Assembly: GCA_964188305.1 (NCBI GenBank)
Contig: OZ076895.1
Origin: Podarcis bocagei
Lineage: Eukaryota
Length of the DNA: 64,000 nucleotides
Direction: 5' to 3' (one strand)
Made by a program: the position numbers. Below, piece by piece: positions 31,035-34,000 of the stretch (the first letter of the stretch is position 1; each line of letters begins with the position of its first letter).

Positions 31035-34000
31035 CTTTCGTAGATTTTCACGGGTACAGGAATGCAGGTTTTGGTGTCTTCGGGTGTCTTCCCGTGTAAG
31101 AGTTGGGGTGTCTAGGCGACGTTTCGACGAGGTCTCACTCGTCATCTTCAGGCTGGTGCTTTCGGCTTCTTGTTACTAGAACAGAGCAGGATCTCAGTGT
31201 TTGAGTTCCTATAAATACTGTTGAGGGGGTGTGGTGTATAGCCTCCAACGTTCTGGGCAGAGAGGAAGTTCCCAGGTTAATGTGTCTTTTCTTCTTTTGT
31301 TCATTAATTACTTGAGGGATATCTTGAGTGATTACTTGAGTGATATTCTGAGTACCACTTAGGAGGGTCATTAGGTGTGGATTAGTTGCTAAAGCTTTCG
31401 TGTCTTGACCTCTTGACCTTGTGAAGAGTTTTTCTGAGAAGATGGCTGTACTGCACTTAGTTGTGCTCTGGCTTGGCTTCGTGTATAGGGGCGAGCTGTG
31501 GTTTTGTGCCCTGTGCCAGCCAGATCTGTGTAGGGATTGCAGGGGGGTGCAGCATCCGGAGGTGCCACTATGGTTTGGCTACTGGATGGTGTCTGTAATT
31601 TATCTGTGGAGAGGGTCTGGGTTTGGGTCTGGTACTCAGAATATCACTCAAGTAATCACTCAAGATATCCCTCAAGTAATTAATGAACAAAAGAAGAAAA
31701 GACACATTAACCTGGGAACTTCCTCTCTGCCCAGAACGTTGGAGGCTATACACCACACCCCCTCAACAGTATTTATAGGAACTCAAACACTGAGATCCTG
31801 CTCTGTTCTAGTAACAAGAAGCCGAAAGCACCAGCCTGAAGATGACGAGTGAGACCTCGTCGAAACGTCGCCTAGACACCCCAACTCTTACACGGGAAGA
31901 CACCCGAAGACACCAAAACCTGCATATATATATATATATATATATGGTTTGATATAATTTTAATCTCCTTCTCACAAACAGGAGAAGAAATGAGAGTTTC
32001 ATAAACACCCTGTGAAGTAAAGCTTGTACAAAAAAATGATAAACAAAATCATCGTGGGACCAAGATCCTTGCCAACATGCTTTCTCTCAGCAACAGCAGA
32101 TGCCAATTTTGAAGAAAATCCCAAAGATTCAAAGGATTTGTATATGCGTATGCATTATCATATTGTTGTTTAGACAAATAGTATGCCTGGTCAAATAATA
32201 TGGGAAAATTAATATTTGCAAATAATTATTGTATGAAAAAGTGCCAGTAATCAAAAGTGATATTATTTGCAAACACTTTTGGGGGAGAGGGAGGACTAGC
32301 TCTGATAAATAGGATAGCAGATGGGTCCAGATTAAATACATGGCTGTAAAATACTCCAGGGACCCGACTTGTTTACGAACAGCAGCTGAACCCTAAGAGT
32401 AAATTTTACCCTGGGAGCCTCCTGTTGTTGAATGTTGTTCTGCTTGCTGGATTTCTTTTTTAGCTAGGTTTTTTTGGGGGGGGGCACAGTGACATTCATT
32501 ATTTTTTGAAAAGTTGGGAATGGCTTTTGTATTGGGAATTGTGTTTCTTTGAATCTGTTTACCTCATGTGGTGTGTTTTTCCTTTTGACACTACAGTGGT
32601 AGGCCTATATCACTTTACTGGCCACTAGTTCAGCACATCTGCCACTTCACCTGCAGAGGATGTAGACGAGTAAACAGAGCTGCATGTCATCAATGTATTG
32701 CTTCAGATACGCATATAATGTGGGTAGAAATAACACGCTAAAGGCCACAGTTCTAGTCCAAGCTGCATTAGGAGCTTTAACACAGCTGAGAAATGCTGAA
32801 AGACCCCACATGCAAACAAATGTAACTTTAAAATATGTGAAATATTCATCTGTTTCTGATTCTTGTGAAATCTGATATTCATAATGCATAAATGAACAAC
32901 AACCATTTATTCATGTTTGCTTTTCTCCTTGCAAGCCTTATTTGTGATGGCTTTTAATATGTATTAATGCCTAAAAGAACAACATTAAGTCATGGAGCAA
33001 CTCAGCTAAGACTTGCTGAAATTGATTAAATAGTTGGATCATCTTATCCCTTTTATTCAAATTGACAGAACGTAGGCCAAATACGCATACCATTGGTTTG
33101 CCCTTTTCGTTATGCTATGGCATGGTGATATACCACCTTGTTATTTATCTGTTCTTTAACGAAAATTGTACTAGGTAATTAGCAATGAAGATATACAGAT
33201 ATTCTGGGGTCTGAACTGTTAGCAACTGACCAGGTACCAGACCTTGGAGTCATAGCTGATAGCACAACAAAGATGTTGACCTAGTGTGTAGCAGCTGTGG
33301 AAGAAGGAACATTCCACAGAATCACTAGCAAAGGAACTGAAAACTGCCAATATCATAATGTGGTTATATAAAGCTAATACAATGTACAATTCTGGTCATC
33401 TCACCTCCCAAGGGACATTGTATTGCCAGAGAAGGTTCAGAAAATGGCAACCAAAATGATAAAGGGCATTGAACAGCTCTCCTGTGAGGAAAAGTTTCTA
33501 CATTGGGGTTTTTTTGGGTTAAATAAAAGGCCAAGTAAGAGGCAACAAGTTAGAGAAAGCGGATAGATAAAAGTTGTTCCCCCTCTCTCTTAATACTAGA
33601 ACTTGTGAACATCTGGCGAAGCCGAACGTTGGAAAATTCCAGAAAGTACTTCACACAGTGCATAGTTAAATTATGGGATTTGTTTCCATGAGAAGTAGTG
33701 ATGACTTCCAACTTGGATGACTTTAAAGGAAGATTAGACAAATTAATGAAGGATAAGTCTATATCAGTGGCAACTAGCCACAATGGTACTGTTCGTCCTC
33801 CATAGCAGGATGCACTATGCCTTTGAATACCAGTTGCTGGGAATTGCAAGTGGGGAGAGGGCTGTTGTGGTCAGGTTCAGTTTTCAGGCTTTCTATGGGT
33901 ATCTGCTTGGCCACTGTGACAACAGAGTGCTGGACTAGATGGGCCTTTGGCCTAATTCAGCAGCGCTTTGCTTATGTTCTATAACACAAAATGGTATCTC

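What the first reader, a model, noticed from the sequence alone, without database searches (positions are those of the whole stretch)
31062..31925. Apparently perfect 296-bp inverted repeat around a 272-bp spacer, bracketed by (TA)n
Seen: arms 31062-31357 and 31630-31925 are reverse complements with no mismatch I could find, and the ORF track gives the same peptide on both strands. Established: 5'-truncated Penelope-like elements often carry an inverted pseudo-LTR and insert into AT-rich sites. Inference: a very recent insertion. Read-through from either strand would form a ~300-bp dsRNA hairpin (Dicer/ADAR substrate) that could silence the family and would sequester its own ribozyme. The DNA could also be fragile.
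Basis: partly seen in the sequence, partly recalled or inferred. Interest (0 to 1): 0.65.

Follow-up and report, generated by a model that had tools for sequence, protein, structure and literature searches.

The report
Inverted Penelope-like retrotransposon insertion
The perfect inverted repeat is real, and it is the ordinary footprint of a dead, truncated Penelope-like retrotransposon that inserted head-to-head with a shorter copy of itself into a (TA)n microsatellite of a lizard-like genome.

Summary
Arms 31062-31357 and 31630-31925 are 296 nt and 100% complementary, with 272 nt between them.

The locus is two 5'-truncated copies of one Penelope-like element (PLE), joined head to head.
- The long copy is 31034-31629 on the minus strand (596 bp).
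- The short copy is 31630-31925 on the plus strand (296 bp).
- Each outer end carries a PLE-type minimal hammerhead motif (2 sites in the window; 0 of 200 shuffles had any).
- An ATG inside that motif opens an ORF whose first 37 aa are 68% identical to the N-terminus of a squamate PLE protein family.
- The spacer, read on the minus strand, matches residues 621-719 of a Podarcis muralis RT/GIY-YIG protein (87% over 79 aa).
- The copies end at ORF nt 84 and 112. The 28-bp difference is the known PLE "tail" between two internal reverse-transcription start sites (PMC11167929).
- The target is (TA)n.

The dsRNA, ribozyme-sequestering and fragility ideas depend on transcription that was not tested here. 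The fragility idea is weakened by the 272-bp spacer. This is a known architecture and of low interest.

The parts
30983..31033 (.). (TA)25.5 microsatellite, the left half of the target site
   Evidence: Tandem Repeats Finder: period 2, 25.5 copies, 100% matches; regex count.
31034..31061 (-). 28-bp PLE 'tail'. It is ORF nt 85-112 of the long copy and is present at this end only.
   Evidence: It continues the ORF in frame (residues 29-37). These residues align with the N-terminus of P0002 through residue 37. It matches the one-sided 30-40 bp tail of PLEs (PMC8557442) and the interval between two RT start sites (PMC11167929).
31034..31629 (-). Long 5'-truncated PLE copy (596 bp). In order: C-terminal tail of the ORF downstream of the endonuclease domain, untranslated/pseudo-LTR stretch, hammerhead motif, and the first 112 nt of the next ORF.
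   Evidence: tblastn: P0021 residues 621-699 match 31631->31404 (87% of 79 aa, E 1e-40) and residues 693-719 match 31416->31336. N-terminal 37 aa at 31145->31035.
31062..31357 (-). Left arm of the inverted repeat, the 3' 296 bp of the long copy without its tail
31118..31151 (-). Minimal hammerhead motif of the long copy. The predicted cut is after 31118 on the minus strand, and the ORF ATG is at 31145-31143.
   Evidence: Descriptor scan, exact pattern match, landmarks.
31358..31629 (-). The 272-bp 'spacer'. It is the extra 5' part of the long copy (C-terminal ORF tail), not a separate sequence.
   Evidence: Collinear with P0021 residues 621-~712 on the minus strand only. No plus-strand protein match was found.
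31630..31925 (+). Short inverted 5'-truncated PLE copy (296 bp), the right arm. It ends at ORF nt 84 (82-84, because its last AT merges with the microsatellite).
   Evidence: tblastn of the N-terminal peptide, residues 1-28, at 31842-31925.
31836..31869 (+). Minimal hammerhead motif of the short copy. The predicted cut is after 31869, and the ORF ATG is at 31842-31844.
31924..31945 (.). (TA)11 microsatellite, the right half of the target site
   Evidence: Regex count and the sequence itself. It scored below the TRF threshold.

Best explanation
The locus is one insertion unit of a Penelope-like retrotransposon (PLE) of the Penelope/Poseidon type in a squamate genome. It is made of two 5'-truncated copies joined head to head, with their 3' ends pointing outward into a (TA)n microsatellite.

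The long copy (31034-31629, minus strand) keeps only four parts: the non-conserved C-terminal tail of the ORF, the untranslated stretch, the hammerhead motif, and the first 112 nt of the following ORF. The short copy (31630-31925, plus strand) is the last 296 bp of the same sequence and stops at ORF nt 84. The 'spacer' is simply the part that the long copy has and the short copy lacks.

Inferred mechanism: a PLE protein, shown in vitro for the Anolis Poseidon element to cut and extend both target strands, nicked both strands of the (TA)n tract. It started reverse transcription on each strand at one of the two adjacent internal start sites just inside the ORF (here nt 84 and nt 112). The two incomplete cDNAs were then joined at their truncated 5' ends. 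Both arms were copied from the same template in one event, which would explain 0 differences in 296 bp.

The unit has no RT or endonuclease coding capacity and is dead on arrival. Any RNA hairpin needs outside read-through transcription.
For: Shown here:
1. A perfect 296-nt inverted repeat with a 272-nt gap.
2. A minimal hammerhead motif 57-90 nt from each outer end, pointing outward. It has the CUGANGA box, one unpaired nucleotide before stem II, a G10.1-C11.1 closing pair, a 6-bp stem II, GAAA, a palindromic 15.2/16.2 pair and UC. The descriptor found 2 sites in the window, and 0 of 200 dinucleotide shuffles had any. These are the features Cervera & de la Pena list for PLE min-HHRs, including pairs on opposite strands 100-700 bp apart (PMC4209133, whole text parts 1-2 read).
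3. [quoted passage not shown] 4. The 37-aa ORF start is 25/37 identical to the N-terminus of P0002 (pairwise E 2e-13; database E 7.3e-4, the only hit among 3 candidates).
5. P0002 matches P0003 from Crotalus adamanteus (65% identity, E 8.5e-64). P0003 matches 471 longer proteins, and 118 of the 120 listed carry RVT_1 by the precomputed column.
6. My own Pfam scan of 4 of them found RVT_1 in 4 of 4. GIY-YIG was above the cut-off in 1 (P0117) and below it in 1 (P0021).
7. The minus strand 31631->31336 matches P0021 (Podarcis muralis) residues 621-719.
8. The ends fall at ORF nt 84 and 112, 28 nt apart, with the extension at one end only. The literature reports a one-sided 30-40 bp tail (PMC8557442) that equals the interval between two RT start sites, at 111-118 nt into the ORF in Poseidon_Ac (PMC11167929).
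9. (TA)n lies on both sides. PLEs have a microsatellite and AT-rich target bias (PMC8557442, PMC11167929).
Against: - No Rfam hammerhead family matches, even at E up to 10. Helix I has only 2 contiguous Watson-Crick pairs next to the core (read), so ribozyme activity is unproven.
- The N-terminal link rests on a 37-aa match with a database-wide E of only 7.3e-4.
- The C-terminal link rests on a single predicted gene model (P0021). No other of the 123 proteins hits the spacer. Relative to P0021 the frame changes once near 31404-31416.
- The predicted stem-loop around the RT start sites is not better than shuffles (z -1.5).
- The tail is 28 bp, just under the published 30-40 bp.
- The single-event, two-strand mechanism is inferred from in vitro work on another family. 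It is not shown for this locus.
- No other copy, empty site, sequencing read or transcript could be examined.
Confidence: 0.88

Rival explanations
1. Two independent insertions of the same PLE family landed in the same (TA)n tract in opposite orientation. The second landed exactly at the truncated 5' end of the first.
For: PLE proteins prefer AT-rich DNA and also cut within their own sequence (PMC11167929). The two ends use different RT start sites, which two events would also allow.
Against: No TA or other target bases lie between the two copies at 31629/31630. The arms show 0 of 296 differences. Inverted 5'-truncated copies abutting the main copy are a regular product of PLE insertion (PMC8557442).
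Confidence: 0.06
2. Assembly artefact: the inverted duplicate was created by a chimeric or fold-back read or by mis-joining of repeats. Only one truncated PLE copy is really present.
For: Craig et al. note that complex PLE structures often cause assembly problems (PMC8557442). Perfect arm identity is what an artefact would give. No reads could be checked.
Against: A fold-back artefact would duplicate the sequence right at the turning point. Here the right arm mirrors a segment 272 bp away. The right arm ends precisely at a PLE terminus (ORF nt 84) and then runs into (TA)n and unique flank. The window has no N or gap, and the two flanks differ.
Confidence: 0.04
3. A non-autonomous DNA transposon (a MITE-like or foldback element) with 296-bp terminal inverted repeats and a TA target-site duplication, as in Tc1/mariner.
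For: Long perfect terminal inverted repeats and TA on both sides.
Against: The ends are asymmetric: there are 28 extra element-derived bases at the left end only. The arms and spacer are collinear with the N- and C-terminal ends of RT/GIY-YIG proteins, on one strand only. The arms carry a PLE-type hammerhead. No other copy lies in the 64 kb.
Confidence: 0.02

Closest known systems
Poseidon_Ac (PAc), the Penelope/Poseidon-clade PLE of Anolis carolinensis studied in vitro (PMC11167929)
   Same: The hammerhead overlaps the ORF start, with the ATG at the start of stem II. The cut falls ~26-28 nt into the ORF. Insertions end at two adjacent internal RT start sites about 30 nt apart, roughly 85-115 nt into the ORF. 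Targets are AT-rich.
   Different: This is a different family. The Anolis protein P0017 has another N-terminus, and the closest named relatives are from Podarcis and Crotalus. This copy has no RT or EN. The AC-rich stem-loop is not significantly supported here.
Penelope of Drosophila virilis, and rearranged Penelope copies with long inverted repeats in transformed D. melanogaster (PMC3681739)
   Same: The inverted-repeat organisation comes from an inverted 5'-truncated copy.
   Different: That host is an insect with a strong endogenous siRNA pathway. No small-RNA or expression data exist for this locus.
Naiad, Neptune and other EN+ PLEs with pseudo-LTRs, tails and (TA)n targeting (PMC8557442)
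   Same: 5' truncation, an inverted adjacent copy, a one-sided 30-40 bp tail and a microsatellite insertion bias.
   Different: (TA)n targeting is stated there for Naiads, which have an N-terminal EN and lack canonical hammerheads. This element has a hammerhead and relatives with a C-terminal EN.
L1 twin-priming inversions
   Same: Two priming events on opposite target strands give an inverted 5' segment.
   Different: In L1 the two segments come from different parts of the RNA. Here both start from the same 3' region, so they form a true inverted repeat.
Non-LTR retrozymes of animals (bioRxiv 10.64898/2026.07.22.740005; abstract and passages read)
   Same: Short non-autonomous hammerhead-bearing sequences related to PLE pseudo-LTRs.
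   Different: Retrozymes are head-to-tail tandem units. This locus is inverted, not tandem, and keeps ORF remnants.

Membership tests
Penelope-like elements (PLE) | Sequence homology to an element encoding RT plus GIY-YIG endonuclease | tested here: met
   - N-terminal 37 aa: 68% identical to P0002. P0002 leads to P0003, and P0003 to 471 longer proteins. The precomputed column lists RVT_1 for 118 of the 120 shown.
- C-terminal side: 87% identity to P0021 residues 621-699.
- My Pfam scan: RVT_1 in 4 of 4 proteins. GIY-YIG in P0117 (27.2 bits, above cut-off) and in P0021 (19.8 bits, below the 22.6 cut-off).
Penelope-like elements (PLE) | Own intact RT-EN open reading frame | tested here: not met
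   tblastn of 123 proteins found no RT or EN match within 31034-31925. Pfam found nothing in the 147-aa frame. This is expected for a 5'-truncated copy, so it marks the copy as dead rather than as a non-member.
Penelope-like elements (PLE) | Hammerhead ribozyme motif in the pseudo-LTR | tested here: met
   A min-HHR descriptor written after PMC4209133 found 2 sites, both in the arms, and 0 of 200 shuffles had any. Helix I has only 2 bp and Rfam gives no hit. Cleavage activity cannot be tested here.
Penelope-like elements (PLE) | Pseudo-LTR or inverted 5'-truncated copy next to the 5' end of the main copy | tested here: met
   The short inverted copy 31630-31925 abuts the 5' end (31629) of the long copy.
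Penelope-like elements (PLE) | A 30-40 bp tail at one end, with ends at two internal RT start sites | tested here: met
   A 28-bp extension at the left end only. The ends are at ORF nt 84 and 112. It is slightly shorter than the published range.
Penelope-like elements (PLE) | AT-rich or microsatellite target | tested here: met
   (TA)25.5 on the left and (TA)11 on the right. A target-site duplication cannot be read inside a microsatellite.
Rfam hammerhead families | A match to a curated hammerhead covariance model | tested here: not met
   There was no hammerhead family at gathering score over the whole window, nor among the 21 matches at E up to 10 in 30900-32100.
Non-LTR retrozymes | Head-to-tail tandem repeats of a hammerhead-bearing unit | tested here: not met
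   No tandem array of the unit was found. The two motifs are on opposite strands.
Tc1/mariner-like MITE | Symmetric terminal inverted repeats flanked directly by a TA duplication, with no retroelement homology | tested here: not met
   The left end carries 28 extra element-derived bases. The arms and spacer match PLE protein ends.

The most novel reading that the evidence does not exclude
This one locus may record a single symmetric insertion event in vivo. A dimeric PLE ribonucleoprotein would have primed cDNA synthesis on both strands of a (TA)n target, using the distal RT start site (ORF nt 112) on one strand and the proximal one (nt 84) on the other. If such units are transcribed by read-through, they would be the natural seeds of hairpin dsRNA against the family in a vertebrate, where that route has not been shown.
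Probability: 0.25. Interest if true: 0.4.

Novelty: already known. Interest (0 to 1): 0.15.

Why it matters
This matters mainly as annotation. The locus should be labelled as a truncated, inverted PLE insertion unit, not as a new palindromic element or an assembly error.

It has modest value for PLE specialists. In a family other than the Anolis element studied in vitro, the two ends fall about 28 nt apart just inside the ORF, and the tail sits at one end only. This agrees with the two-start-site model of PLE reverse transcription.

The dsRNA idea would matter only if read-through transcription and small RNAs or A-to-I editing were found at this locus.

Tried and rejected
- **Rfam.** The gathering-score scan of the whole window found only a tRNA-like hit elsewhere. 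The E<=10 scan of 30900-32100 found only low-complexity (TA)n look-alikes of miRNA and viral models, and no hammerhead.
- **Pfam.** It found nothing in the 37-aa peptide, P0002, P0003 or the 147-aa minus-strand frame. A first Pfam call on raw frames failed because they contain stop codons.
- **Other copies.** blastn of the element against the window found none.
- **Protein matches to the spacer.** Only P0021 matched on the minus strand.
- **RT-start region.** Its fold is not better than shuffles (z -1.5, -1.55 and -1.0), so I do not claim the AC-rich stem-loop.
- **ARAGORN.** It found no tRNA in the window.
- **Rejected readings.** DNA transposon with TIRs, fold-back assembly artefact, retrozyme (reasons under rivals and membership).
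  - Copy number, the full-length source, the empty site and Repbase/Dfam names therefore stayed unchecked.
I did not see those of PMC4209133 (reptile min-HHR families) or PMC11167929 (Figs S1-S2, element sequence). They may already show this family.

Full report
**1. The observation**

The repeat finder reports arms 31062-31357 and 31630-31925 of 296 nt, 100% complementary, with 272 nt between them. A direct string test gave exact reverse-complement identity, and the match stops at once at both the outer and inner borders. The window has no N, and blastn found no further copy of arm or spacer in the 64 kb.

The identical peptides on the two strands are real but follow from the repeat. The (TA)n bracket is asymmetric:
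- The right arm runs straight into (TA)11 at 31924-31945.
- 28 bp (31034-31061) lie between (TA)25.5 (30983-31033) and the left arm.

**2. What the arms are**

About 57-90 nt from each outer end, reading outward, lies the 34-nt string CTGAAGATGACGAGTGAGACCTCGTCGAAACGTC. It sits at 31836-31869 on the plus strand and 31118-31151 on the minus strand. Read as RNA it contains, in order:
- the CUGANGA box;
- one unpaired U;
- a 6-bp stem II closed by G10.1-C11.1, with a 6-nt loop;
- GAAA;
- the palindromic pair C15.2/G16.2;
- U16.1 and C17.

[quoted passage not shown] They also note pairs of such motifs 100-700 bp apart on opposite strands (PMC4209133, text parts 1-2 read).

A descriptor I wrote from that description found only these two sites in the window and none in any of 200 dinucleotide-preserving shuffles. 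Against this, Rfam gives no hammerhead hit at gathering score or among 21 matches at E up to 10. Helix I has only two contiguous Watson-Crick pairs next to the core (read). The motif is therefore PLE-like, but its activity is unproven.

**3. ORF start inside the motif**

The ATG within the motif (31842-31844 plus; 31145-31143 minus) opens a frame. On the left copy it reads MTSETSSKRRLDTPTLTREDTRRHQNLHSCTRENLRK up to the microsatellite. The predicted ribozyme cut is after ORF nt 28. [quoted passage not shown]

The homology chain from this peptide is:
- A 40-aa query was needed because 37 aa is below the tool's minimum. It found one protein among 3 candidates: P0002, database E 7.3e-4.
- The pairwise alignment is 25 of 37 identical from residue 1 to 37, E 2e-13.
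- P0002 leads to P0003, a Crotalus adamanteus protein (65% identity, E 8.5e-64).
- P0003 leads to 471 longer proteins. The precomputed column lists RVT_1 for 118 of the 120 shown.
- My own Pfam scan of four of them found RVT_1 in 4 of 4. GIY-YIG was above cut-off in P0117 and below cut-off in P0021.
- The accessions PF28514 and PF26215 in the precomputed column did not appear in my Pfam copy, so I cannot name them.

**4. What the spacer is**

tblastn of all 123 proteins held against the window gave one strong match to the locus besides the N-terminal peptides. P0021 (Podarcis muralis, 735 aa) residues 621-699 match the minus strand 31631->31404 (69 of 79 identical, E 1e-40). Residues 693-719 continue at 31416->31336 in another frame. 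No protein matched the spacer on the plus strand.

P0021 carries its GIY-YIG match at 499-538. Homology of the other 121 alignment rows to P0021 ends at a median of residue 597 and a maximum of 677. The spacer is therefore the poorly conserved C-terminal tail just behind the endonuclease domain.

It follows that the left copy is the long one: 31034-31629, minus strand, 596 bp. The right arm is a shorter inverted copy: 31630-31925, 296 bp. The "spacer" is what the long copy has in excess. Neither copy has RT or EN sequence.

**5. The ends**

The right copy stops at ORF nt 84. The range is 82-84 because its last AT merges with the repeat. The left copy stops at nt 112. The extra 28 bp continue the ORF and align with P0002 through residue 37, so they belong to the element and not to the target.

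Craig et al. describe PLE insertion units as 5'-truncated, often with an inverted 5'-truncated copy next to the 5' end. They also describe a 30-40 bp "tail" often present at only one end, and a microsatellite bias (PMC8557442, passages read). Frangieh et al. show the following for the Anolis element (PMC11167929):
- Reverse transcription starts at two adjacent internal sites, 111-118 nt into the ORF.
- The tail is the sequence between those two sites.
- The protein prefers AT-rich DNA.
- It cleaves and extends both target strands.

The present locus fits point for point, with a tail of 28 bp. The AC-rich stem-loop they describe is not significantly supported here (z -1.5).

**6. Mechanism**

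Shown here: two copies of one sequence, head to head, each ending at a PLE-type terminus in (TA)n.

Inferred: a single event in which both strands of the target were nicked and each primed cDNA synthesis from the same internal start region, one at nt 112 and one at nt 84. The two incomplete cDNAs were then joined at 31629/31630. This accounts for the perfect identity of the arms.

Two separate insertions are less likely, because no target bases separate the copies. A fold-back assembly artefact would mirror the sequence at the turning point, not a segment 272 bp away. It would also not end at a PLE terminus followed by (TA)n and unique flank. A TIR transposon is excluded by the one-sided tail and the one-strand collinearity with PLE proteins.

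**7.

- **Recency.** With 0 differences in 296 bp, the 95% bound is 2 x 296 x rate x time < 3. That gives roughly 2.5-5 million years for assumed rates of 1-2 x 10^-9 per site per year. The rates are recalled, not checked, and arm-to-arm gene conversion would reset the count.
- **dsRNA.** A transcript across 31034-31925 is predicted to fold into the full 296-bp stem (-693 kcal/mol; shuffles -287 +/- 9). That stem would bury the hammerhead. However, the copies point outward, so any promoter in their own pseudo-LTR would transcribe away from the partner arm. The hairpin needs outside read-through, which I could not test.
  - Precedent: in D. melanogaster lines transformed with Penelope, siRNAs correspond precisely to the inverted regions of rearranged copies (PMC3681739, passages read).
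  - The ribozyme is also not needed for insertion in vitro (PMC11167929), and this copy is dead in any case.
- **Fragility.** For 320-bp Alu inverted repeats in yeast, widening the spacer from 12 to 100 bp lowers recombination about 300-fold. Widening it from 12 to 200 bp lowers rearrangements about 20-fold (PMC10164571, passages read). A 272-bp spacer therefore predicts only a modest risk in duplex DNA.

**8. Host and limits**

The window is not human. The closest named relatives of the element are from Podarcis and Crotalus. The neighbourhood holds an RT-bearing LINE frame. I take the window to be from a squamate, perhaps a lacertid; this is an inference.

No eukaryotic DNA collection was available. 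Copy number, the full-length source, the empty site, reads and expression stayed unchecked. The supplements of the PLE papers, which may show this very family, were closed.

**9. Verdict**

The feature is real and correctly interpreted in outline. Its architecture is typical for PLE insertions and is described in print. It is already known and of low interest.

Noticed in passing
window 30300-30980 (minus strand): A LINE fragment lies next to the left (TA)n. The minus-strand frame 30377-30589 ends in a peptide that I recognise from memory as the C-terminus of an RTE/BovB-type ORF2. Pfam found nothing in it. The PLE unit and its microsatellite sit at or beyond the 5' side of this fragment.
   Followed up: partly
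window 9115-11079 (minus strand): A 654-aa open frame carries an RVT_1 match (E 9e-19) and a cysteine-rich C-terminal part. It is an L1-like LINE ORF2 remnant. The L1 assignment is from recall.
   Followed up: partly
window 35614-35674 (minus strand): A tRNA-like Rfam match (37.4 bits, model positions 6-65) was not called by ARAGORN. The sequence after it looks like a SINE body. It is probably the head of a tRNA-derived SINE, not a tRNA gene.
   Followed up: partly
window 31307-31353 and 31634-31680: Each arm holds a short internal tandem repeat, period 12 (3 copies) or 24 (2 copies). It lies in the stretch between the C-terminal ORF tail and the hammerhead. Its meaning is unknown.
   Followed up: no
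window 6001-8000, 20001-22000 and 42001-44000: These blocks have higher G+C (0.52, 0.48 and 0.47) against a background near 0.40. They could be CpG-island-like or exon-bearing regions. Whether the PLE unit lies inside a transcription unit was not determined.
   Followed up: no
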